Below are positions 11,988-56,533 of a stretch of DNA of 64,000 bases, piece after piece. A model generated the notes under the pieces. The model was not told the origin of the DNA, did not search any database, and saw nothing but the letters and a program-made list of their open reading frames with translations. The stretch lies in contig JBNRSN020000003.1 in the NCBI GenBank assembly GCA_051313645.2, forward strand, positions 501,022,001 through 501,086,000, given 5' to 3'. This DNA comes from Centroscyllium fabricii. Lineage: Eukaryota. Position 1 is the stretch's first letter. Every line of letters starts with the position of its first letter. The translations under genes were made by a program, and so were the position numbers.

Positions 11988-12417
11988 AATAGTAGAATTA
12001 ATTAAAAGCTTTTAGTTAGTCATGTACAAACAGTTTAATAAAAAAAACTTGTCATGACTGGGATATTAAAGAACTGCATAATAATGCATTAACACTTCAG
12101 AAACGTCACTCAGTTACACGGTTATGCATCGACAAACAATCCAGGGTGAGTTGAAAGAGGCACATCTATTCATACAATTTGTATTCATTTTGAAGTTTTC
12201 AATGTATTAGCCCATCCCTAGTGTCAACTATAGCAATGACTGCACAAGCAGCAGGAGCAGCAGCTTTCCTGTGGCGTTGACATGCTGGACGTTCACATAA
12301 GTAATTAGAATATTAATCACAATGCAGGCAGACACCCAACAAATATAAAGTGCCGTAGTTCTTTAGCTCACAGTATTAAAAAGAATTGAACAAAATCGGG
12401 CATCCGTATTTCCAACT

Positions 12418-12692
12418 TGACGTATCGTCAATATCTCTTAATAAAAGACTGGACGAGTAGTTACCGTAACTATAGGGTTTTAATAACTTACTTTGGAGTG
12501 ACCCTCCGAACGAACATCAGAACAGAATGAGGGAGCCTCGGTCAGTCCTCACCTATAAAGGCCTCACCTGGGGGAGGAGTTAGAGGTGTGGCTGACCTGG
12601 CTCCACGACAGTGTTACAGGCTGTGTATCACACACAGCCAATTGTTGGCAACAATAATTCAGTGGTACATATACATATTATGGGTTACCACA
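12418..12692 (-). repeat. 3' LTR of the Gypsy element
   Basis: Direct repeat of 20517-20792; about 5 substitutions and 1 indel by eye (about 98% identity). Confidence 0.96.
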
Positions 12693-15600
12693 TTCACCCC
12701 TTCTTGAAAATTTTAAGTCCGGTGGGGGTGAATGGACCGAGCAGTTCAATATCAGTTTGTCCGGCGGTCGTGTCAGCCTGGAGGACCGCCGGAGTTCCGG
12801 TGATGGTTCTTCGTGGTCCGTGCTGCTCGAGTCCGTTGGTGGTGCCGTAGTTTCGGATGGTGATGGTCTCAGATGGTCCGAGCTATCGGAGTGGTGGTCT
12901 TGGGCTGGCCACGGCTGGGGCTCTGGAAACCTCGGAGGCCATCGTAGGTGTAGGGGGTGTTCTGGATACTGTGGCTGGGCGGGCTGCTGGCCGACCAGGG
13001 GCTCTGCTGCGGTGTTTCCTGCGGGCGGCAGGTCCCTAATTGATACGGTGTCCTCACGCCCGTCCGGGAACTGTACAAACGCGTATTGCGGGTTCGCATG
13101 CAGGAGCTGCACCTTGTCCACCAGGGGGTCGGTCTTGTGGCCACGGACGTGTCTCCTAAGGAAGACCGGCCCCGGTGTCGTGAGCCATGGAGGAAGAGCT
13201 GTCCCCGAAGTCGACTTCCTGGGAAAAGCAAAAATCAAATCATGAGGGGTGGCTTTAGTGGCCGTACACAGGAGAGAGCGTATAGAATGCAGTGCGTCTG
13301 GGAGGACTGCCTGCCAATGGGCCACTGGAAGGCCTCTGGACTTCAGAGCCAGGGTGACCACCTTCCAGATGATCCCATTCTCCCTTTCTACCTGGCCGTT
13401 CCCCCGGGGGTTGTAACTGGTCGTTCTGCTCGTGGCAACCCCTTTCTGGGGCAGAAACTGACGTAGTTCATCGCTCATGAACGATGACCCCCGGTTGCTA
13501 TGGATGTAGCTGGGGAGACCGAAAATGGCGAACAGCGTGGTGAAGTGTTTTATCACCGTTGCGCTCGTCATATCTGCGCAGGGGAAGGCGAAGGGGAAGC
13601 GGGAGAACTCATCTACGACCGTGAGGAAGTATGAGTTGCGGTCGGTGGTGGGGAGGGGGGCCTTTGAAGTCCACGCTGAGACGTTCAAAGGGGCGGGTGG
13701 CCTTGATGAGGTGCACCGTGTCTGGCCGGAAAAATTGGGGTTTGCACTCGGCGCAAACAGGGCACTCTCGGGTCATAGCCTTGATCTCCGTGATGGAGTA
13801 GGGGAGGCTACGGGATCTGACGAAGTGGGCGAGTCTGGTTACACCCGGGTGGCAAAGGCGGTCGTGGAGGTCCTTCAGCCGGTCTAGCTGGGCACTGGCG
13901 CACGTTCCCCTGGACAGTGCGTCCGGGGGTTCATTGAGTTTACCTGGTCGGTAAAGAATGTCGTACTCGTAAGTCGAGAGTTCGATCCGCCACCGCAGGA
14001 TCTTATCATTCTTGATCTTACCCTTCTGTTTATTATTAAACATAAACGCCACCGACCGTTGGTCGGTGAGAAGGGTAAAACGCTTACCGGCCAGGTAATG
14101 ATGCCAGTAGCGCACGGCCTCCACGATGGCCTGGGCTTCCTTTTCCACTGCAGAGTGGCGAGTTTCGGGTCCCTGTAGGGTGCGGGAGAAAAACGCTACG
14201 GGCCTGCCTGCCTGATTCAGCAAGGGCGAAGTCCGAAGCGTCGCTCTCCACCTGGAAGGGGATGGATTCATCAACTGCGAGCATGGTCGCCTTGATGATG
14301 TCTTCCTTTATCCGGGCGAATGCCGTTTGTGCTTCTACCGAAAGGGGGAAAACGCAAGCCTTGAGGAGTGGTCTAGCCTTGTCCGCGAACTGTGGGACCC
14401 ATTGTGCGTAATAGGAGAAAAATCCTAGGCATCTCCTCAAGGCTTTAGGGTTGTGAGGTAGGGGCAGTTCTTGAAGGGGTCGCATACGCTGTGGGTCGGG
14501 GCCGAGGACCCCGTTTTCCACCACGTATCCGAGGATGGCGAGCCGGGCTGTATTAAAGACACATTTGTCTTTGTTATACGTGAGGTCCAGCTTATCCGCC
14601 GTGTCGAGGAATTTGGCCAGATTGGCATCGTGGTCCTGCTGGTCGTGGCCGCAGATGGTCACGTTGTCCAGGTAAGGGAAAGTGGCCTGCAACTCGTTCT
14701 GGTCAACCATGCGGTCCATCTCCCTTTGGAACACTGACACTCCGCTGGTCACGCCGAAGGGGACCCGGAGGAAGTGGTAGAGCCGACCGTTCGCCTCGAA
14801 GGCGGTGTAGGGGCGGTCGCCTTTCCGGATCGGGAGTTGGTGATACGCCGACTTAAGGTCGATCGTGGAGAACACCTTATATTGGGCGATCTGGTTGACC
14901 ATTTCCAAGATGCGGGGGAGGGGGTAGGCGTCGAGCCCGGTGTAGCGGTTGATAGTCTGGCTGTAATCGATCACCAGCCGCTGTTTCTCGCCAGACTTCA
15001 CCACTACTACCTGGGCCCGCCAGGGGCTGGTGCTGGCTTCAATTATCCCCTCCTTCAGGCAGCATACGCCCGACCTCCGACCTGATAAACGTGCGATCCC
15101 CCACACTGTACCGCCGACTCTTGGTAGCAATAGGTTTGCACTTGGGGTCGAGGTTGGCGAACAGTGAAGGGGGGTCGATTTTCAGGGTGGAGAGGCCACA
15201 GGCCGGGCTCCGCTTTGGGAAGGGACTGTCCCGGCTACTGACGGTGAGGGGGGCAAGGTCCCGCCGAACTCCATTGTCATGCTCTTGAGGTGGCACTGGA
15301 AATCCAGACCTAGTAAGGCTGGGGCACACAACTGCTGGAAGGTGTACAATTTAAAATTACGGTATACGCACCCCTTGACTGTGAGCGTGACGGAGCAGTA
15401 GCCGGTGACGTCAGCGGTGTGGGACTTTGAAGCAAGGGAGACTTGGTAGTTCGTGGGCAGGATCTGCAGTCCGCAGCGCTGCACTGTATCGGGGTGCACA
15501 AAGCTCTCCGTGCTTCCAGTGTCAAATAGGCAATCGATAATATGGCCGTTTATTTTAATAGGCATTATCGAATTCGACAGAGTGTGTGGCCTGTCCTGGT

Positions 15601-15702
15601 CCACTCTGGGTATGGCTGAAGCCGACGTGTACTTTTGTGTGTGGGGGCCCCCTGCTGGTTGGGGCTGTACACAAAATGGCGGCGCCCCTGGCTCGCACAT
15701 GG
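12678..15702 (-). pseudogene. Gypsy pol (protease, RT, RNase H, integrase), frameshifted
   Basis: LFDTGS protease; RT IDLKSAYHQ, VPFG, YLDN; RNase H ESDAS...DALSR; integrase HHCC finger and VDFKGP/VVDEFSRF/HSNRGSSF/GQVER; frame breaks near 15250, 15060, 14220 and 13660; second integrase catalytic Asp appears as Asn (SNRG). Confidence 0.93.
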
Positions 15703-18700
15703 ATTGGATTGGATTGGATTCGCTTTATTGTCATTGCACAGTACAAGTAAAATGCAACGAAATTAGGTGTGTCCAACCAGAGTGCAAACAGCAGTTATAT
15801 GCATATATATAATAATAATATACAGTAAAAGAGTATATACAGTAAGTGCAGTGGGTTAAAATGCCGTTAAAAATACACTATATAAAAGTTATATTCGCTA
15901 TGGTCTTATGTACAAACAGGTTATGAACATAATAGCATCTCATGATCTTCAAGGGCTAGGCAGTATGAGACGGGGTGGAGTTCTTTGTCAACAGTCTGAC
16001 AGCTGAGGGGAAGAAGCTGTTAATAGTCCTGTTGGTTCTGCCCGGGAGGCTGCGATAGCGTGACCCAGTGCGAGTGCCACGTTGGGCGATAAACAATCCA
16101 TGGTTGGGATGAGAGGCGTCTCCGATGATGTTACGTGCCCTTCGTAAGCACCGCCTCTCATAGACTGAAGTGATGGATGGGAGCGAGGTCTTGGTGATGC
16201 GTTGGGCGATTTTCACCACCTTCTGCAATGATTTTCGGTCGCTGATGGTACAGTTGCCGTACCAGACTGAGATGCAGGTGGTAAGGATGCTCTCAATGGT
16301 ACAGCGGTAGAAGTTCATCAACACCTGAGAGGATAGGCGAAGTTTAGCCAGTTTCCTCAAGAAAAAGAGGCGCTTGTGGGCCTTCTTGACCAGAGTTGAG
16401 GTATTGGTGGTCCAGGAGAGGTCTTCAGAAATGTGAACTCCCAGGAACTTAAAGCTGGTGACACGCTCAACCTCCTCCCCATTGATATGGATGGGGGTGT
16501 GCGTGCCTTTTTTGTTCCTTCTGAAGTCCACGATAATCTCCTTGGTCTTTTTGGTGTTGAGTACCAAGTTATTGTTGGTACACCACTCTGCTAGGTGCTG
16601 GACCTCTTCCCTGTATGCCGTCTCGTCATTGTTGCTGACGAGCCCAACCACTGTGGTGTCGTCTGCAAACTTGGCAATGGTGTTTGAGCCATGGACAGGA
16701 TTGCAGTCATGCGTGAAGAGGGAGTAGAGAAGGGGACTCAGCACACAGCCCTGTGGGAGACCAGTGTTCAAGATGAGGGACGAGGATTTGTACTTGTCCA
16801 GTCTGACGTGCTGGGGTCTGTTGGTCAGAAAGTCCAGTATCCAATTGCAGAGGGAGGGGTCGATGCCAAGGCCAACAAGCTTGGTGATCAATTTGGAGGG
16901 GATGATGGTATTGAATGCCGAGCTAAAGTCAATGAACAGGAGTCTCACATAGGTGTTGCTCTGGTCCAGATGGTAGAGGGCAGGGTGTAGTGCTGCTGAG
17001 ATGGCATCATCCGTACTCCTGTTCTGACGGTAGGCAAACTGATAGGGGTCAAGTGTGGATGGGAGGCATGATTTAAGATGAGCCAAGACCAGCCTCTCGA
17101 AGCACTTCATGATGGTGGAGGTGAGTGCCACGGGTCGGTAGTCGTTGAGGCTCACTGGGGAGGCGTGTTTAGGAACAAGCACAATAGAGGTCGATTTGAA
17201 ACACGTAGGGACTTTTGCTTGGGCCAGAGACAGATTGAAAATGTCGGTCAGGACCCCGGTCAGTTGTTCAGCACAAGCGCTGAGTACACGTCCGGGGATG
17301 CCATCAGGGCCAGCAGCCTTACGTGAGTTGGTCCTGCTCAGTGCAGCATACACATCTGTGGGGGAGAGTGTGAGGGGAAGGTGGTTTGCAGGGATAGTGG
17401 CCTTGGTGGCCATCACGTGGTTGTCCCTGTCAAAACGAGCATAGAAGTCGTTTAGCCCATCTGGAAGGGAGGAGTCGGTGGTCGGGGGGGAAGCGTGGGT
17501 GGATTTGAAGTCTGTGATGGCCTGCAAGCCCTGCCACATGCGCCGAGGGTCAGAGACATTGAAGTACTCCTCCACCTTAAGCTTGTGGCTGTGCTTAGCC
17601 CTTTTGATGCCCCTTTTCAGGTCAGCCCGGGCTAGACTGTAGGCCTGTGCGTCCCCTGACCTGAAGGCGATGTTGCGTGCCTTCAGCAGTTGTCGGACCT
17701 GCCCGTCCATCCACGGCTTCTGGTTTGGGAAGATTGTAATTCGTTTGATGATGGTGGCATCATTGATGTTAGTATTGATGACATCCAAGACAGAGGAGGT
17801 GTAGGAGTCGATGTCAGTGTGTGAGTCCACTGTGGCTTTTGCAGCGAAGTTACTCCAGTTAGTGTACTGGAGCTGATGCTGTAGTACTGAGTCTGCCCCC
17901 TCAGGCCAGACTTTCACGACTGAGGGCTTGACTCGCTTGATGAGGGGGTGATACTTGGGTAGGAGGAACAGAGAGGTGTGGTCTGACTGACCCAGGTGGG
18001 GAAGGGGGAGGGCCTTGTATGTGTCTTTGATGTTAGTGTAAACATGATCTAAGGTCTTATCTCCTCTTGTGGGGCAGGAAACGTGTTGGTAAAATTTGGG
18101 GAGAACAGACTTTAGGTTGGAGTGGTTGAAATCTCCAGCAACGATGAAGGCTGTCTCCGGGTGTCGTGTCTGTTGTTTGCTAATGGCTGCATGCAGTTCT
18201 TTCATAGCTAGCTTAGCATTAGCGTCCGGTGGTATGTAAGCTGCGGTTGTAATAATGGATGTGAATTCTCTGGGCAGGTAGAAGGGTCTACATTTAACCA
18301 TGAGAAATTCTAAGTGGGCAGAACAGTGACTATCGATGGTGGTGGTGTCTGTACACCAGGAGTTGTTAACATAAATGCACAGACCTCCTCCGCGCATCTT
18401 ACCGCAGTCAGCTGTTCTGTCCGAGCGGTTGCAGTGTAGGCCTTGTAGCCCAACCGCACTGTCTGGAACACCATCGTGCAACCATGCTTCCGTGAAGATC
18501 AGAATGTTCGTGTCCATAATCCTTTTGTTGTTTGTAATCCATAGGCGTAATTCATCCATTTTGTTCACCAGAGACCGCACATTAGCAAGGAGAAGGCTGG
18601 GGAGAGGGGTGCGGTGAGGAGCCTGGGTTAGCTTCCCTCTAGCGCCTCCTCTGCAGCCTCGTTTTTGCCTGCGTTCTCTCCGCCGCCTACGGGGCCTCCT

Positions 18701-19266
18701 TGACCGGGGAGGCAGTGTAAACAGACCCGGTGAGCCCGGTTGTCTGACAATGTCACTGGGACCGTCGAAAGTGATGGTAATATCCGGCGATCCGACATGT
18801 ATACCAATGACCAGAAGCTCATGTCTGGTGTAAAATGGATTGGTACTGCTGTACTGGGCGAGCAGTCTGTGGATGAGTATGCAGATAACTACTAATTTGC
18901 CAAAACTGGCGGGACCAAAAGCCGCAGCGTATACACACACGCCGCCATGAGAGGTGCAGCAGGTTGAACTAAAGGAGCAACGGAGGAGGCAGAGGCCAGA
19001 CCCGGGAGCGGGACTTCGAGCAGAGCAGCAGGCTTCAAAGGAGCAGCGGAGGAGGCAAAGGCCAGACCCGGGAGCGGGACTTCGAGCAGAGCGGCAGGCT
19101 TCAAAGGAGCAGCGGAGGAGGCAAAGGCCAGACCTGGGAGCGGGACTTCGAGCAGAGCGGCAGGCTTCAAAGGAGCAGCGGAGGAGGCAAAGGCCAGACC
19201 CGGGAGCGGGACTTCGAGCAGAGCGGCAGGCTTCAAAGGAGCAGCGGAGGAGGCAAAGGCCAGACC
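15703..19266 (-). mobile_element. Apparently full-length Rex1/Babar-type LINE inserted in Gypsy gag
   Basis: APE endonuclease (LANVRSL, FTEAWL, VAGDFN, LDHVY, SDH), RT ([28 protein letters not shown]), C-terminal [10 protein letters not shown] motif, 3' UTR ending GACAATAAAGCG(AATCC)n; 5' tandem repeats. Confidence 0.93.
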
Positions 19267-20491
19267 CGGGGCCTTGGAGACAAAATGGCGGCGCCCCTGG
19301 CTCGCACATGGCGGGCCGCTGGGGACAAAATGGCGGCGCTGAGGGGTCGCACATGGTGGGCCGCTGGGGTCGAGATGGCGGCGCCCGTGGTTCGCACGCG
19401 GCTGACCGCTGTGAGCGCGCTGGCGGCGCCCGTGGTTCGCACGCAGCGGGCCGCGGTGACTGGGTTGGCGGCGCCCGTGGTTCGCACGCAGCGGGCCGCG
19501 GTGGTCGGGTTGGCGGTGCCCGTGATTCGCACGCAGCCGGCCGCGTTGGGTCTGCTGCTGGCGTTGGGGGGTCGCGCTTTGCCGGCCTTTGCCGCATCGG
19601 GGTGGGAGCTGGGGGCGCTTCCCTTCTACCCCCGGGCCGTCGCTGGATGGCGCTGCTATTGCAGCTTACCTGAGGTCTGTCGGAGCTTTCACAGGCTGCG
19701 CTGTTGTACCTGGAGTTGGGCGCTGCTGGTGCTGATCTGCAAGCCTTTGCGTAATGTCCCTTTTTGGCGCACCTCTCGCAGGTCGCGGTCCTTGCTGGGC
19801 ATCTCGCTCGCGGGTGCAGTCCCTGGCCGCAGAAATAGCAGCGTTTGTCCTTTGTGGCTGTCGCAGCCATCGTGGGGGTCTCGACCCGTTGTGGTGCTGC
19901 CCAGGCCTGGGCCCGTTGTGGCGCGGCCCACATGTCGTAGGCCTGCGGGTTTGTGCCGCTGTACGCCTGCAATTTATTGCGTGCTCCTTCAACGGAGTTA
20001 GCTATGGCGATAGCCTCTTCCAGAGACAAAGAGTCTTTTTCGAGCAGCCGCTGGCGGGCTTCCACGCACCTCAGGCCAGTTACGTACGCGTCTCGGACGA
20101 GGAGGTTCGCCTCCTCTTCTGCTGTCCAGGCTTGGCAGCCACAGACCCGTACCAGGGCCTGGAGCGCTTGCTCAAACTGTTCATTGGTCTCACCCGGTAG
20201 TTGTGGTCTGGTCGCAAGCACATGTCTGGCGTAGACCGAATGGACCGGGCGCTCGTAGCATTTCCTCAGCTTTTCCACTGCCCCTGGGTAGGTTTTGGCG
20301 TCTCGGATGAGGGAGAATACTCGGCTGGAGATCCTAGACCGGAGAACCTGTAGCTTGTTCCCGTCGGTTGTAGCCTTGGCGGCGTCCATATAGGCCTCCA
20401 GGAGACCGAACCAGTGTTTGAACGTGGTGGCGGCGGCTGGGTCCTGTGGACTGATATCCAGCTTTTCTGGCTTTACTGCACCGCTCTCCAT
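15956..20491 (-). CDS. Chimeric 1511-aa ORF: Gypsy Gag (two Cys/His knuckles) fused in frame to LINE APE-RT
   Basis: Stop-free in the ORF track; residues 1 to about 408 are Gag ([28 protein letters not shown]), the rest is LINE 5' repeats plus ORF2. Expression is not shown. Confidence 0.75.
18970..19269 (-). repeat. 66-bp tandem repeat (about 4.5 copies) at the LINE 5' end
   Basis: Unit GGCTTCAAAGGAGCAGCGGAGGAGGCAAAGGCCAGACCCGGGAGCGGGACTTCGAGCAGAGCGGCA on +; encodes [22 protein letters not shown] in the fusion frame. Confidence 0.9.
19267..19545 (-). repeat. 45-bp (15-aa) tandem repeat in the Gag C-terminal region
   Basis: [15 protein letters not shown] repeated six times; a seventh unit ([12 protein letters not shown]) lies beyond the LINE at about 15665-15702. 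Confidence 0.85.
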
Positions 20492-20516
20492 TTCAAAATT
20501 TTTAAGTTATTAAAAT

Positions 20517-20792
20517 TGACATATCGTCAATATCTCTTAATAAAAGACTGGACGAGTAGTTACCGTAACTATAGGCTTTTAATAACTTACTTTGGAGCTA
20601 CCCTCCGAACGAACATCAGAACAGAATGAGGGAGCCTCGGTCAGTCCTCACCTATAAAGGCCTCACCTGGGGGGAGGAGTTAGAGGTGTGGCTGACCTGG
20701 CTCCACGACAGTGTTACAGGCTGTGTATCACACACAGCCAATTGTTGGCAACAATAATTCAGTGGTACATATACATATTATAGGTTACCACA
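20517..20792 (-). repeat. 5' LTR of the Gypsy element
   Basis: TGTGGTAACC...TATGTCA on - strand; gag ATG (20491) lies 26 nt downstream. Confidence 0.96.
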
Positions 20793-21037
20793 CAACTTCA
20801 ATCACTTCCATTAATAAACGTTGTCTTCTTGAACCAGCACACCCCCCATGTAACATGTCAAATGCAGCACTTATTCACAAGTGCTGAAAAACACATACAC
20901 AATTTGTGTCACCAGGTTAAAACATAGCTTTTCCTGCTTTTTGTTTTTAACAGAAATAAACATTCATCTTTCTTCTTAGGCAGGAGAACCAATCAGACTG
21001 ACTTGGAAATGTTTACTAATATGTTGACGTAAAGATA

Positions 21038-24096: not shown

Positions 24097-26975
24097 GGCT
24101 TCAATTTTCATTGAGCCATGGAGGCGGGCTTGGAAGTGTGCGGGGTGTTAAAATTGCAAAATCTGGCAGGCAGGCAGGCGGGACCCTCCCCCCCCCCCCC
24201 CCCCCCACCCCCTCCGCTTGGTTCCCAACTCCGAGCGATTTTAATTCAGTCGTGTCTGATGGTCCCGACTCCATCCTGCATCCAACAGGTGCGACTGGTC
24301 GTTAAGGCCCTTAGCCACTAAATGGCCTCTATAATGCTATTTTGAAAGGCCCTTGCGAATTTAACCCTTTTCCCACGTGAAACACGCCTGGTGGGAAACA
24401 CGAATGTGAAACCTGGTGGGAGCACAATTGGATTGCTGACTATCAACTGCAGGTCAACCATTAAAGCGGAGATTTGCTCAGCCATGATTTGCAGGTGGCA
24501 GGACTTAGTGGTCTGAGGTCTGGGGCAACTTTTAGAAGGTTTAACCACATCTGTGGAAGGTTGGAGTCTCACACCCATCTCCAGTGTGACCTCCTGGGAA
24601 CCCCTCTCACCACCTTCACTCAGCACTTCCTCAACGAAAGCATATGCCAGAAGTATGGGAGCCACTTATTTCCTTCCCATCTGGGCACTAGAGGAGCTCG
24701 AGCACCAGCCACAGCAGCAGAACCAGAAACAACAGCAGCAGGAGTGCCAGGGTGCTGCTCACCTACCTGAAGCTGCATAGGCCAGAAGGGGCCAGCGCCT
24801 GGAAGGCCGTTGGCGCAGGAGATACCGCCCAAACAGGGTCTACAGACGCAGGGTCAGCTACCTCAACATGTCTGAGCAACAATGCCAAAGGCGGCTCCGA
24901 CTTTCGCGAGAGATAGTGACTGACATCTGCGCAATGCTACAGCAAGACCTGCTGCCCAGAGGACCAGGTGGATACTCCTTACCAGTGGCCATCAAAGTCA
25001 CCACTGCACTCAACTTTTTTGCCTCAGGCTTATTCCAGGGAACATCAGCGGCATCTCCCAGGCGGCCGCACACACTTGCATCACGCAGGTAACTGATGCC
25101 CTCTTTGCCCTCGTGCACAATCACATCCATTTCACCAAGGATTGAGCAAGTGTCACGGCGCGAGCGGTTGGATTACCTAATCTGGCAGGCTTTCCAAGGG
25201 TGCAGGGCGTTGTTGACTGCACACATGTGGCCCTTAGGGCACCCCATCGCAATCCAGGTATTTTTGTCAACCACAGGAGCTTCCACTCCCTCAACGTTCA
25301 GCTGGTGTGTGACCACAAGAAGGAAATTTTGCATATTTGTGCCATATACCCTGGAAGTTGCCATGACTCCTTCATACTGTGCCAGTCTCGTGTGCCTCCT
25401 CTATTCAGTCCACCAGACTAACTTAACGGATGGCTACTTGGAGCCAAGGGCTATCCCCTAAGGACGTGGCTAATGACGCCGTTGAGGAGGCCAGCCAACA
25501 AAGCTGAGGAGCGCAACAACCCCAGCCACATTTCCACAAGATCCATTATCGAACAAACCATAGGTTTGCTGAAGATGCACTTCAGATGCCTGGATAGATC
25601 TGGTGGAGCCCTACAGTGCTAAGCAGCCAGGGTCTCTAGAATCATCGTGGTTTGCTGTGCACTTCACAACATGGCACAGCATCGTGGCTTGCAGATTCCT
25701 GAGGACCAAGTGACTTCTCACATATCCTCCTCAGATGATGAGGAGGAGGAGGAATGCGAAAACGAACATCCTGCAGAGGCCCATCAACCAGCGGCAGCAT
25801 TACGCGAGAACATTGCTGCCTGGGATGCAAGGAACGCACTTATCCTGGCCAGATTTGCTTAGCCTAGTCAATCAAACACTTGCCTCGCTGCTTCTTTCCA
25901 AAGCTTTGACAATGGCCAAGAACCAGAGGATTCCTAGCACTCTGACCTCCATACTGACAGTTGCAAGTATTTCTGAGGCCTCAATGTGGAAGTCCCAATT
26001 GCGAAATGACAGACGCCACAACTGCAACATTTGCCATCAGAATTTTTATGTTCAATAATGACGTGATGGCATTTTTACAGTAAACACAAAATTGCACCCA
26101 AGTAACTACCCTTGTGACTATTTATTTGTGCAGAATTTTCCTCTTGTGCGTGCTCCTACGCGGTGCCTCCCCTGTGGCTTCAGCAGATATGAAGGCCCCT
26201 TGCTCACTTTCCTGCTGCTCCTTTCTCGACACCTTTGGTGGGCGTCCTTTGGGGTTGCAAGCCTGTGCGGGCTCGTCAACAGTCTGCTGCTCCTGCGGCT
26301 GTGCAGAGGTTGAAACGTCTATCTCACTTGGGTGTGGACTCCGGTGGGGCTCTGACCAAGGGCTCTGCAGTGGCATGGAAGTGTGAGTGCATGGAGAGGA
26401 GCCCCCACTTGCCACCAACCTGCCTCTCATGGGTCAGGTCCCCCTCCGTGCCTGCAAGTGGCTGGAGAGCACCTTGCTGCACATCAGGGGGGGGCCATGG
26501 GGACCCATATCTGCAATGGCAGTCCTACTCAGAAGGACTTCCACGAAGGTCTGGTTTCTCTGTTCAATAGATGCCCATCGTTCCTCAAGAGATGTGATTC
26601 TATTCTAAACAATGACCATGTTTTCCATACCCTGGCGACTAAGCTCCTCCATGGCCGTAGCCATCCTCTCCTCTATGGTAGCAGGCCTTACCATGGAGGT
26701 AGCAATCGTTTCCACGGAGGTAGCCATCCTTTCCGTGGTGATGCGTTCATGCGCCAATGACTCCACAAAGGCTTTGCTCATGTTCGCTATAGACTCCTCC
26801 ATTCGCTCCACACTCGTAGCGACCCTAGAGACAAAACCTGCCAGAGACTCCTGCATCTGTGCCTGGTGTTCCATCACCTCTGACCAGCCTGTAGAGCAAT
26901 ATAGACAACAAACAATCCATTGTCTGAAAAAAGAGAGGTTCCTGCACACATACCCATCAGATGGAGAAGATTAGT
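24097..26975 (+). mobile_element. PIF/Harbinger transposon, degenerate and right-truncated
   Basis: Colinear with 51002-56786: similar left end and AAGGCCC...AAGGCCC subterminal palindrome, transposase remnant, and the 3' part of the accessory gene on - strand; Myb exons and right TIR absent. Confidence 0.88.
24655..25862 (+). pseudogene. Harbinger DDE transposase pseudogene
   Basis: MGATYFLP...*...[41 protein letters not shown] (Asp lost), IEQTIG; one stop and a frameshift near 25045. Confidence 0.88.
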
Positions 26976-51528: not shown

Positions 51529-52779
51529 ATGGGAGCCGTTTTTTTCCTTCCCTTCCTGGGATTGCATGATCTCTACCAGGAGCAGATGCGGCTACAGCAG
51601 CAACAGCACCAGCCACACCAGGAGCCTGACGCTCCTGCGGACCCTCCGGGGGCAGCATGGGCCAGAAGGCATCGGCGCATCTGAGGCCGTCACCGCAGAA
51701 GATACCCCCCAAACAGGGTCTACAGAGTCCGAGCCACCTACCTCAACATGAGTGAGCGGCGGTGCCAAAGGCGACTCCGACTTTCCCGACAGGCAGTCAC
51801 AGACATCTGCGCCATGCTGCAGCAAGAGCTGGAGCCCAGGACACCATGTAGACATGCCTTACCAGTGGCCCTAAAAGTCACCACCGCACTCAACTTCTTT
51901 GCCTCGGGCTCATTCCAGGGATCAGCAGCTGACATCAGCGGAATCTCCCAGTCGGCCGCACACTCCTGCATCACCCAGGTAACCGATGCCCTCTTTGCCC
52001 GCGCCCACAATTTCATCCATTTTACCACCGATCGCACAAGTGTGAGGGCCCGAGCGATTGGAATGGCTCGTCTGGCAGGCTTCCCAAGGGTACAGGGCAT
52101 CATTGACTGCACACATGTGGCCCTTAGGGCACCCAACGACAACCCAGTAGCTTTTCTCAACCGCAAGGGCTTCCATTCACTCAATGTTCAACTGGTGTGT
52201 GACCACAACAAGGAGTTTTTGCATGTGTGTGCCAGGTACCCTGGCAGCTGCCATGACTCCTATGTCCTGCGCCACTCAACCTTGCCTACGCTCTTCACAC
52301 CGCCGGACCAGCTTCCGGGGTGGCTCCTTGGAGACAAGGGCTATCTCCTCAGGACTTGGCTCATAACGGCGGTCAGGAAGCCAGCCAATGAGGCTGAGGA
52401 GAACTACAACTCCAGACACATCTTCACCAGAAGCATTATAGAGCACACCATCGGCTTGCTCAAGATGCGTTTCAGATGTTTGGACAGATCAGGTGGAGCC
52501 CTGCAATACACCCCAGCCAGGGTCTCCAGAATGGTAGTGGTATGCTGTCAACTTCACAACATGGCCCAGCGCCGTGGCTTGCAAACTCCTGACCAAGACC
52601 TGCCTCCTCGCATACCGTCCTCAGATGAGGAAGAGGAGGAGGAGGAGGAAGAAGAGGAGGAGGTAGAGGAGGAGGAGGACGGGGTTGCTGCCGCTCGACC
52701 CCAGCCAGCGCCACCATTACGCGAGAACGTTGCTGCCCGGCAAGCAAGGATGGAGCTCATTCTTGCAAGATTTTCGTAG
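51529..52779 (+). CDS. Harbinger DDE transposase (HARBI1-like); one in-frame TGA at 51682-51684, 343-aa core from 51748 intact
   Basis: HTH ([10 protein letters not shown]), [40 protein letters not shown], acidic tail; upstream MGAVFF start is in the same frame and matches the copy at 24655. Confidence 0.9.
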
Positions 52780-54025
52780 ACTACTCAAGCCAGCTTGTGT
52801 TACTCTCCTCATCCTACCAGCGCATCCTCAATGACACACTCCAATCAGCTCCACAGCTCATACCTGCATGCGCCCACTACTGTAACAACATCTGTGGGGG
52901 GGGGGGTTGGGGGAGTGTGAATCGGTTGCTGGCAACTGCCTATGAAGGCTTTCTGCGCTCGCCCATCCAGCCACGCCCCTGACGCACCACACATTTCTTG
53001 GATGAACATGGTCCCACCCAAACATCCATCCATCCATCACATGCAATAATGAACACAGAAACATTCAAGGTTGCAACTGCAACATGCTGTTTAGTACATA
53101 CATTAAGCAAACAAGGCCACATGCATGGTTGTTCAACTGATGACTAGCACTTATGATTCACTACATTAATGATGTCCCAGGCATCTCAGCTGCAGACATG
53201 CAGGTTGAAACAGTCAAAATGTCATTATCAGCAATGCTGCACCTCAGCCAGTCCACTTTGGAGCTTGAAACTTCATATCCATTGTCAATCATGTTCCCCC
53301 CTCTCACGAGCTGCCCCTCCCTTTTCAAGAGTGACACATAATGACAAACCAGGGCAGCGCACCCGCACATGAGGCAGCAGTAGTGGAGTGCGGTGAGGGT
53401 CAATGTCTGGTGGTTCTTCACCCACCTGATCTTGTTTAATGTGTCCGAGCTGAGGCATGCTGGCACCATGGCTCCTTGGCCATTCCATCAGGGTCAGGTG
53501 CTGTGAGGGGCCATTTGAAGCCAGATGATGTTGGATGCGTGGGTACTTTGGACAGTTGCCGCATCTTTTCTTTGGCCACCTCCATCCGTTTAAGGTTTTG
53601 TTCCTGTAAAAGTTCAGCACTGAGGCGTGTTTGCTGCTGTAGCGAAAACATCAGGTGGCTTGTTCAGTTAACCTGGTCATCCTTTGGTCCACACATCGGT
53701 CATACAGTCCCTCTGTTCGCTGGTGTGCGTCCCCATGAGGGTAGGCCGGTTTCAAGAACCTTCACTGTTAACCATTCAGCTGCACTGTGCTGTGGAACCT
53801 CATTCGTCCTGCTGTAAGTCCTTCTGCCATGTTGCATCAGCATCGTTGCATATCTGTGAGGCCTGCCCGATTGCTGCCCAGCCTGCATAAGGTGTCAATG
53901 TGGAAGGGGCATTCGCAAGATGTCAGACATGACAACTGCATCTGGTGGCACCTCAGTGGTCTGCTGTGTGACCACTGATTTTGGAGACCTAACTTACACT
54001 AACACCCAAGTGACTCCCGTTGTGC

Positions 54026-56533
54026 CTAAGGGTGCTTACTGGTTCTTCTACGAGTGCTCCTACGTGTTGCTATCCCTGTGGTGTCAGCAGATGTGGAGGC
54101 CCCCTGCGGAGTGCCCTGCTGCTCCTGTGTGGACACCTTTGGCGGGCGTCCTCTGGGGCGGCGAGCCGGTGGGGTCTCGCTACCAGTCTGCTGCTCCTGC
54201 GGCTGCGCAGGGTATGAGACTTCCATCTCAGGCGCATGGGGACTCCAGCGGGCGTCTGACCGAGGGCTCTGCAGTGGTGTGGACGTGGGAGCGCTTGGAG
54301 AGGAGCCCCCACCTCCTTCAGCTGCACCACCAACCTCCCTCTCATGGGTCACCTCCCCCTCAGCGCCAGCAAGTGGCTGAATAGCACCTTGCTGCACTTC
54401 AGGGGGGCCATGGGGACCCGTTTCTGAAGTGGATGTCCTACTCAGAGGGGCTTCCAGGAAGGTCTAGGTCATCTGCTCAATAGATGGGACACAATAGATA
54501 GGCATCCTCTCCAACTTCTACCGCTGCACAATAGAAAGCATACTGACAAGCTGCATCACAGTCTGGTATGGAAATTGCACTATCTCGGACCGGAAAACCC
54601 TGCAGCGGGTAGTCAAAACTGCCCAACGAATCACCGGTACCCAGCTACCGTCAATGGAAAGCATCTACCTCAAACGCTGCTTACGGAGGTCTCTGAACAT
54701 TATTAAAGACCACACACACCCCAGCCACAGTCTGTTCGCCCCCCTGCCCTCCGGGAGACGCTACAGATCAATTCGCACCCGCACGACTAGATTTAAGAAC
54801 AGCTTCTTCCCCAGGGCTGTCAGCCTCCTGAACTCTAAAAAAATAAACTCCGGTACCTGCACGCCTGATAATGTACTTTACTGTATGCAATTTGCATGTA
54901 ATTTTTTGCACTACTCTCGGGAGCGTCGAGTCTTCGTCTCGTTGTATTGTACTAGTACTCTGCAATGACAATAAAACTTGAATTGAATTGAATAGATGCC
55001 ACTCGCTGCTCAGGAGATGTGTATCTATTGTGTGCAGTGCCCATGTCTTCGAAAGACTGGCCATTTATGTGCTCGATGGCCGTGGCCATCCTCTCGTCCA
55101 CGGTCGCTATCCTTTCCATGGTGGTCGCCATCCTTTCCATGGTGGTTGCCATCCTTTCCATGGTGATGCAATCATGCGACACTGACTCTGCAAGGTCGCT
55201 TCTCATGCTTGCGACAGACTCCTCCATTCGCATGACACTCGCAGCTACCTGGGAGACAAAACCTGTCGGAGACTCCTGCATCTGTGTCTGGAGTCCCATC
55301 ATGTGTCCTCTGCCTGATGGATCCAAAGGCGCTGTGTCTACATGCAGCTCAGCTAAGCTGCCAGAGTCCTGCGCCCTCCGACTAGGACTCAGCACTGCTG
55401 TCCCTTTCTCCACAATCTGCTGACGCGCACTAGTGCTGTCTGAATCACCCGGTGACAAGTTATATGTAGCTCTAGGGGGGCCCACCGAGGTGCTAGTATC
55501 TGCGCTGGTGCCGGGTGGAGTCTGTGGTGCTGACGGTGCACCCTCAGGTGGCATGTTCCTCTGAGGACTGGACAGCTCCTGATCAGCTCCGGTTGTCTGT
55601 CCATCTGAGGCTGGACCTGTGGGGCAGTAAAGGCAGAGGTTAGAGATATGTCAGCAAGGTTACATGCAGATAGCATTCAGGAGCTGAGCAGAGCTGCCTC
55701 TGCAGTGCTTTTACATTCATTGTGGCAGTCTCGTGTTAGTTTTAAGATACATAATTAAACCATGCTGTCACCGACTCCAGATTGCCTGCCTGCTTCGCCG
55801 TCACCCACTCCCGGGGCTTGCCCCTCCCCAACGAGGTCCAGCACTGCCTCTTCCCAGGTGGTGAGCTGCTGGATGGTGGGGGGTCCTCCTCCGGTCCCGG
55901 CGCTGTGCCGCTTGTTGGCGGCTGTCTTTTCCTGCAATGAGGGAGAGAAGTGGAGGTTGAGTGAGAAGGAAGGAGTTGTTGCAGCGAGTGAGCAGCAAAG
56001 TTTGCTGTAGGGTGACAAAGATGCAGTGAGCCTGCAAGACCAAAGGCTCTCCCGTGTGCTTCCAGATGTGCAGCAAGCATGAGAGTGAGAGGGAGTGTGA
56101 GGGCTGAATGGAGGGAAAGGACCGTGAGTGTGACCATAGATAGAGAGGGAGAATGGGTAAGGTTGCTTGGAGGTGGTGGCCAAGTGGGATGTGGAGGAAG
56201 GTAGAGGTGAAGATAAGTTGTGGTGAGGAGAGGTGAGGGGGATGAGATTGAGGGTGAGGGGAGATGAATACTTACTCTGGCAGTGCGATGAAGGTCATGC
56301 AGTCGCTTGCGACACTGCAGCCAGGATGTTGCGCCCAAGGAGCTGACCCCCTCAGCCACCTGCTTCCATGCAGCCTTCGTCTGTGAGGGAGGTCTCTTCC
56401 TCCCTGAGGAGGGGAAGAGAACCTCCCTATGGGTAGTTGCCCCCTCGAGCAATGCGTCGAGGGATGCATCGTCAAATTTGGGGGTGGGTCGTCCCCTAGC
56501 GCTGCCCGCTGCAGCACCCTCACGCTCTGCCAT
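54026..56533 (-). pseudogene. Harbinger accessory Myb/SANT-like protein gene (3 predicted exons), disrupted
   Basis: Exon 1 56533-56276 (PKFDDASLDALL...AAWKQVAEGV...WLQCRKRLHDL|gtaag), exon 2 55931-55772 (TGGGPP), exon 3 from 55616 (MERMATT heptads, then RRPRGRPPK); broken by the LINE at 54487-54990 and a TAG just after it. Confidence 0.85.
54487..54990 (+). mobile_element. 5'-truncated Rex1/Babar-type LINE
   Basis: [21 protein letters not shown]...HPSHSLFAPLPSGRRYRS; tail GACAATAAAAC(TTGAA)n; 8-bp TSD AATAGATG (54479-54486, 54991-54998). Confidence 0.92.

What the first reader, a model, noticed from the sequence alone, without database searches (positions are those of the whole stretch)
15956..20491. 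Stop-free Gag-APE-RT fusion ORF: a LINE enzyme placed under an LTR in frame with Gypsy Gag
Seen: the 1511-aa ORF starts 26 nt after the 5' LTR, runs through Gypsy Gag, then through LINE 5' repeats into a complete Rex1/Babar APE-RT with catalytic motifs intact. The element's own pol has about four frameshifts and a D-to-N change in integrase. Established: LINE ORF2 normally lacks Gag and LTR elements lack APE; nested insertions are common. Inference: an LTR-driven transcript could make a capsid-tethered LINE RT and end at the LINE 3' tail, so the hybrid RNA could in principle be copied by target-primed reverse transcription. The simplest explanation remains a young, chance in-frame insertion into an already dead Gypsy copy.
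Basis: partly seen in the sequence, partly recalled or inferred. Interest (0 to 1): 0.75.

Follow-up and report, generated by a model that had tools for sequence, protein, structure and literature searches.

The report
Chance in-frame LINE insertion into Gypsy
A young LINE retrotransposon sits inside the gag gene of a broken Gypsy element and forms one 1511-codon reading frame with it; the fusion is single-copy, has no detectable offspring, and is likely an accident of nesting of a kind that also turned up elsewhere in this genome.

Summary
The ORF is real: Gypsy Gag (aa 1-~407), LINE 5'UTR repeats, then APE-RT with 12 of 12 checked catalytic residues intact. It is most likely a one-off nested insertion.

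Both junctions and a private 6-nt deletion each occur once in 7.2 Gb, so no daughter copies were found. The LINE's own ATG is out of frame here because of a +2 variant carried by 26 of 433 copies. The fusion reads the untranslated repeats in a non-native frame. Private LINE changes look neutral (2 synonymous, 3 not) and hit conserved residues. A second, unrelated 1478-codon Gypsy-LINE fusion frame turned up among 60 other LINE copies, so such frames arise by chance.

One result points the other way. This copy's Gag has fewer amino-acid changes than each of 37 sisters (1 versus at least 3; post-hoc P 0.014-0.07), while its pol decays normally. Expression and raw-read support for the junction could not be tested.

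The parts
20793..20797 (.). Gypsy target-site duplication, 5' copy (5 bp)
   Evidence: identical to 12413-12417; read
20517..20792 (-). Gypsy 5' LTR, 276 nt, TG...CA ends
   Evidence: 5 substitutions and 1 indel against the 3' LTR
15956..20491 (-). 1511-aa fused reading frame (Gag + LINE 5'UTR repeats + APE-RT)
19268..20491 (-). Gypsy gag portion with two CCHC-like knuckles (from aa 218) and a 45-nt repeat array at 19285-19544
   Evidence: the knuckle scores only weakly in Pfam, below cut-off
19268..19270 (-). 5' junction, 3-nt microhomology between Gypsy and LINE
   Evidence: single copy in genome
15703..19267 (-). Rex1/Babar-like LINE, slightly 5'-truncated, 3565 nt, replacing 1 target base
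   Evidence: 98.1-98.8% identical to 20 of 20 sisters; empty-site joint 15702-19268 with one letter between
18971..19270 (-). LINE 5'UTR, 4.5 copies of a 66-nt repeat, read here in a non-native frame
18939..18948 (-). LINE native start ATG (18948-18946) followed by a +2 dinucleotide variant that puts it out of frame with APE-RT
   Evidence: homolog N-termini start at the equivalent motif
17978..18586 (-). APE endonuclease domain, aa 636-838
   Evidence: PF03372
16430..17173 (-). LINE reverse transcriptase, aa 1107-1354
   Evidence: PF00078
15703..15955 (-). LINE 3'UTR with AATAAA near 15729 and (ATCCA)n tail; 3-nt microhomology with the target at 15700-15702
   Evidence: junction single copy
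12693..15702 (-). Gypsy gag end and pol remnant (PR-RT-RH-INT), four frameshifts, in-frame deletion, integrase D-to-N
12418..12692 (-). Gypsy 3' LTR, 275 nt
12413..12417 (.). Gypsy target-site duplication, 3' copy

Best explanation
A 3.6-kb LINE lies inside the gag repeat array of a Gypsy copy, in frame with Gag, and likely arrived by one ordinary target-primed insertion, so the fused frame is likely a neutral accident that is now decaying. Shown: a Gypsy element with a 5-bp TSD; a LINE in sense at a site with 3-nt microhomologies at both ends and 1 nt lost; LINE 5'UTR repeats that are stop-free in two frames; a +2 variant that links the Gag-phased frame to APE-RT. Inferred: the Gypsy inserted first and the LINE about 2-2.5 times more recently; one phase in three gives a fusion; the frame is still open because the LINE is young and has had little time to acquire stops; the locus has not been copied since.
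For: Each junction matches once in 7.2 Gb with up to 2 mismatches. The private 6-nt deletion also matches once. The one other copy sharing a private substitution shares 1 of 10 rare sites and lacks the deletion. LINE singletons are 5 (2 synonymous, 3 not) against a median of 6 and 38% synonymous in 48 other copies (Fisher P=1.0). Four of 5 nonsynonymous rare changes examined hit conserved positions, including a P kept in 108 of 110 homologs and a T/S kept in 109 of 110 beside the catalytic Glu. An open APE-RT frame is usual in this family (30 of 56), as is an open Gag (12 of 30). Nesting is common: 7 of 56 and 5 of 60 LINE copies abut Gypsy-like DNA. An independent 1478-codon Gypsy RT/RNase H + LINE frame occurs in 1 of 60 copies. 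Rough expectation for a Gag fusion is 0.5-1.1 per genome, about half that after allowing for the 28 of 60 copies whose APE frame does not extend past their 5' end.
Against: The Gag of this copy is unusually unmutated: 1 singleton versus 4-12 in 12 sisters; 0 unseen bases versus 3-15 in 29 copies; 1 nonsynonymous change versus at least 3 in 37 of 37 copies. Its pol and LTRs decay at the normal rate. Post-hoc P is 0.014-0.07 depending on the test. The tests on the LINE part rest on 5-10 changes and have low power. All catalytic residues checked are intact.
Confidence: 0.87

Rival explanations
1. This copy's Gag is under purifying selection (incipient domestication), and the LINE insertion lengthened it into an expressed Gag-APE-RT protein whose LINE part is a tolerated passenger.
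For: Gag has 3 synonymous and 1 nonsynonymous rare change, where about 6.3 nonsynonymous were expected (P=0.014). It is the lowest of 38 copies, while pol in the same copy is broken. The 5' LTR and ATG are in place.
Against: Counts are very small and the test is post hoc. The Gag-versus-pol synonymous ratio is not significant (Fisher P=0.30), and the within-copy density test gives P=0.04-0.07. One copy among thousands (3341 candidates) has a low prior. The locus was picked for having an open frame.
Confidence: 0.06
2. The Gag tract was refreshed by gene conversion or by cDNA from a younger Gypsy copy, perhaps while the LINE's 5' end was being resolved, so Gag has the LINE's age rather than pol's.
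For: Rare-change density is 0.32% in Gag (4 of 1248), 0.34% in the LINE and 0.83% in pol.
Against: No near-identical donor among the 40 scored of 3341 candidates; the best are about 99%. The junction shows plain microhomology with no extra bases.
Confidence: 0.04
3. The chimera is a working hybrid retroelement: an LTR-driven RNA ending at the LINE tail makes a Gag-tethered APE-RT that copies it by target-primed reverse transcription.
For: All parts lie in order on one strand: LTR, ATG, Gag, intact catalytic residues, LINE polyA signal and tail. A similar route to ORF1 capture is proposed in PMC4120745 (section 13, read).
Against: No second copy of either junction or of the private deletion. 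Private changes at near-invariant APE and RT positions. The protease lies beyond the LINE stop codon, so the fusion would not be processed in cis (inference).
Confidence: 0.015
4. The junction or the frame is an assembly error.
For: No raw reads were available to confirm it.
Against: The +2 variant occurs in 25 other copies. Both junctions have the microhomology seen at other insertions of this LINE. The Gypsy TSD matches on both flanks, and the Gypsy halves abut the empty site to within one base.
Confidence: 0.015

Closest known systems
Nested insertion of a non-LTR retrotransposon into an LTR retrotransposon
   Same: LINE inside a Gypsy element, with microhomology at both ends and a short target-site truncation; both outcomes are described for zebrafish ZfL2-2 insertions (PMC2666801, passages read).
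   Different: The insertion happens to be in frame with Gag and the whole frame is still open.
Rex1/Babar LINEs (APE-RT, short tandem-repeat tail)
   Same: APE before RT, 3' oligonucleotide tail, frequent 5' truncation (PMC6274825, passages read). Named best homologs are teleost proteins with PF03372/PF00078/PF09004 at about 50-73% identity.
   Different: Own ATG is out of frame; the only in-frame start upstream of APE comes from the Gypsy Gag. Clade placement by RT phylogeny was not run.
Ty3/Gypsy LTR retrotransposon with a single gag-pol ORF
   Same: LTRs, 5-bp TSD, PR-RT-RH-INT order; 4 of 20 sisters have one open frame of 1412-1444 codons.
   Different: This copy's pol is broken and cut off from gag by the LINE.
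ORF1 capture by LINEs (Metcalfe and Casane model, PMC4120745; author names recalled)
   Same: A 5'-truncated LINE with a complete ORF2 lands behind another element's first ORF, the route they propose for hybrid elements.
   Different: The donor is an LTR-element Gag, the join is a single fused frame, and no spread of the hybrid is seen.

Membership tests
Rex1/Babar LINE | APE domain upstream of RT in one ORF | tested here: met
Rex1/Babar LINE | 3' UTR ending in a short tandem-repeat tail | tested here: met
   (ATCCA)n here and in 18 of 20 sisters where the end motif was found
Rex1/Babar LINE | No separate ORF1; single start upstream of APE | tested here: met
   ATG at the same place in 31 of 31 native-allele copies; homolog N-termini agree
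Rex1/Babar LINE | RT groups with named Rex1/Babar references | not tested
Ty3/Gypsy LTR retrotransposon | Paired LTRs with TG...CA ends and a 4-6 bp TSD | tested here: met
Ty3/Gypsy LTR retrotransposon | Domain order PR-RT-RH-INT | tested here: met
Ty3/Gypsy LTR retrotransposon | tRNA primer-binding site after the 5' LTR | not tested
   none evident by eye in the 25-nt leader; no tRNA comparison was run
Autonomous chimeric retroelement family | More than one copy sharing the chimeric junction | tested here: not met
   1 match each
Autonomous chimeric retroelement family | Purifying selection on the enzyme part | tested here: not met
   low power
Domesticated Gag-derived gene | Purifying selection on Gag | tested here: inconclusive
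Domesticated Gag-derived gene | Transcribed and conserved at the orthologous site | not testable with these tools
   no RNA holder listed; no related genomes held

The most novel reading that the evidence does not exclude
This locus is a Gag gene caught in early domestication that now makes an LTR-driven Gag-APE-RT fusion protein, a live snapshot of a LINE acquiring a retroviral-type capsid as its ORF1.
Probability: 0.06. Interest if true: 0.7.

Novelty: new member of a known kind. Interest (0 to 1): 0.2.

Why it matters
As it stands it is a clean example of how long hybrid ORFs arise by chance in TE-rich genomes. Stop-free 5'UTR repeats let this LINE family join upstream frames, and 1 of 60 sampled copies has done so with another Gypsy. 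That warns against reading such ORFs as new elements, and it shows that raw material for the proposed ORF1-capture route is produced repeatedly. If the Gag signal were real and the locus expressed, it would be a testable intermediate between LTR and non-LTR elements.

Tried and rejected
32-nt TSD: rejected; it is a pre-existing gag repeat.

+2 variant as an assembly slip or as private to this locus: rejected; 26 copies carry it, scattered over the LINE tree.

Apparent synonymous excess in the LINE (9 of 17, P=0.064): vanished once closer sisters were added, because most were sub-lineage variants.

pol inherited from a dead master: the 14220 deletion occurs in 4 other copies, but they share 0 of the 20-25 rare pol sites covered and are 89-94% identical in pol, so it is recurrent. 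The 15062 insertion is unique.

Possible daughter at C678: rejected.

Expression: no RNA holder listed, which is no evidence either way.

Junction in public DNA runs X1-X4: no listed contig bridges 19268. These are contigs of a high-copy repeat with most pieces not shown, so the result is inconclusive.

Protein search: none of the 120 listed of 402 hits covers more than 65% of the query or shows a Gag Pfam domain. Only 831-2645 aa proteins and 8000 candidates were scored.

Literature: searches listed no natural Gag-APE-RT element; these were listings only, in an open-access library.

Earlier scan findings: none. No structure or complex prediction was run; it would not bear on the question.

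Full report
OBSERVATION. The frame 15956-20491(-) is 1511 codons without a stop. It starts 26 nt after the last base of a 276-nt LTR (20517-20792). The partner LTR lies at 12418-12692, with 5 substitutions and 1 indel between them, and the same 5 bp flank both ends. Pfam places APE at aa 636-838 and RT at aa 1107-1354. Twelve of 12 catalytic residues checked agree with 110 aligned homologs. The element's pol has four frameshifts, an in-frame deletion and the integrase D-to-N, whereas 4 of 20 sister copies carry one open gag-pol frame of 1412-1444 codons. The description is accurate.

ANATOMY OF THE INSERTION. The 32 nt repeated on both sides of the LINE looks like a TSD but is not. Sixteen of 20 sisters have the same two 45-nt gag repeat units in tandem with no LINE; two have one unit, one has a deletion and one printed no match. 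Four of 4 public DNA runs show the empty joint 15702-19268 with one letter between. So the LINE (15703-19267) replaced one base, with 3-nt microhomologies at both ends. Microhomology and short target truncation are described for zebrafish ZfL2-2 insertions (PMC2666801, passages). Three other nested copies of this LINE could be resolved, and they show overlaps of 5 nt, 5 nt and a 3-nt loss.

WHY THE FRAME IS OPEN. The LINE's own start is the ATG at 18948. It is in frame in 31 of 31 native-allele copies, and fish homologs begin at the equivalent motif. The 66-nt repeats upstream are 5'UTR but are stop-free in two frames. The window copy has 2 extra bases just after this ATG, a variant found in 26 copies against 407 native and scattered over the tree. 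The variant disconnects the native ATG and connects the other repeat frame, which is the one Gag enters. With either allele one phase in three gives a fusion. An open APE-RT is usual in this young family (30 of 56: 22 of 31 native, 8 of 25 with +2), and so is an open Gag (12 of 30).

NO SPREAD. Each junction matches once in 7.2 Gb with up to 2 mismatches. A private 6-nt deletion 2.2 kb from the LINE's 3' end also matches once, so no daughter longer than that exists unless the deletion came later. One other copy shares one private substitution but only 1 of 10 rare sites and not the deletion. The families themselves are large: 3341 candidates for Gag and 1878 for the LINE, of which 40 were scored in each search.

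NO SELECTION ON THE ENZYME. Against 48 full-cover copies the window LINE has 5 singletons (2 synonymous, 3 not); the others have a median of 6 with 38% synonymous (P=1.0). An earlier hint of synonymous excess (9 of 17) came from sub-lineage variants. Of five nonsynonymous rare changes examined, four hit conserved columns: T669 (T/S in 109 of 110, next to the catalytic Glu), P1105 (108 of 110), A824 (A/G in 104) and E1012 (62). Rare-change density is 0.34% in the LINE and 0.83% in pol (P=0.016), so the LINE is the younger.

THE NULL. Seven of 56 and 5 of 60 LINE copies abut Gypsy-like DNA. A rough product of nesting rate, strand, gag share, phase and intactness gives 0.5-1.1 Gag fusions per genome, about half that after allowing for the 28 of 60 copies whose APE frame does not extend past their 5' end. 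More directly, 1 of 60 copies taken in list order has its APE frame open 330 codons upstream into the RT of another Gypsy family, making a 1478-codon frame. Hybrid ORFs of this size therefore arise independently in this genome.

THE RESULT AGAINST MY READING. This copy's Gag is less mutated than expected. It has 1 singleton in 932 nt against 4-12 in 12 sisters, while its pol is typical. With a 17-copy panel chosen on pol, not Gag, it has 0 unseen bases against 3-15 in 29 copies (7 of 24 pol-chosen loci were dropped for poor cover or high Gag divergence). It has 1 nonsynonymous rare change against at least 3 in 37 of 37 copies. Its four rare sites are 3 synonymous and 1 not. P values are 0.014 (nonsynonymous count), 0.04-0.07 (density) and 0.30 (ratio against pol), all post hoc. 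Chance, conversion from a younger copy and selection on Gag remain open. No near-identical donor was among the 40 scored.

WHAT COULD NOT BE TESTED. No RNA run holds the locus, no raw reads were available, and contigs of four DNA runs were inconclusive for the junction. No related genome is held, so the host's identity and orthologues are unknown. The Rex1/Babar label rests on architecture (PMC6274825, passages) and teleost homologs, not on a tree. Supplements were not read.

COMPARISON. It works like any nested LINE insertion. It matches the first step of the ORF1-capture route proposed in PMC4120745 (section 13), here with an LTR-element Gag as donor, but it fails the test for a chimeric family (one copy). 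Seven paper searches listed no natural Gag-APE-RT element (listings only).

VERDICT. A real ORF, most likely a chance product of nesting (0.87), with a small residual chance that Gag is selected and the fusion expressed (0.06). Interest 0.2.

Noticed in passing
L187:4521-8957 (+) (G000:C2, about 59.61 Mb): Independent 1478-codon stop-free frame joining the RT and half RNase H of a different Gypsy family to this LINE's APE-RT. Its first APE motif Asn is changed.
   Followed up: partly
window 18830-18948 and homologs P0002-P0062: The native LINE protein begins with a hydrophobic, signal-peptide-like stretch before a YTRxELL motif and an Arg-rich patch; the same layout is seen in 8 of 8 fish homologs printed. 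One paper search found nothing.
   Followed up: partly
26 LINE copies listed: The +2 variant removes the in-frame ATG yet appears in 6% of copies, including older ones. It may be recurrent slippage, trans-mobilisation or a non-AUG start in the frame that is open from the element's 5' end.
   Followed up: partly
L053 flanks: Another copy of this LINE appears inserted in sense into the Gag N-terminus of a different Gypsy family (motif recognised from memory), in the frame that would fuse only with the +2 variant.
   Followed up: no
window 20492-20516 and 12693-12725: No evident tRNA primer site after the 5' LTR; the leader resembles the sequence just before the polypurine tract, so priming may be unusual.
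   Followed up: no
window 24700-26860 and 51580-55290: Two diverged copies (74-82% identical) of an element whose translation resembles a PIF/Harbinger transposase (recalled, not scanned).
   Followed up: no
L025, L034: Sister Gypsy copies with a related Gypsy element nested inside them.
   Followed up: no
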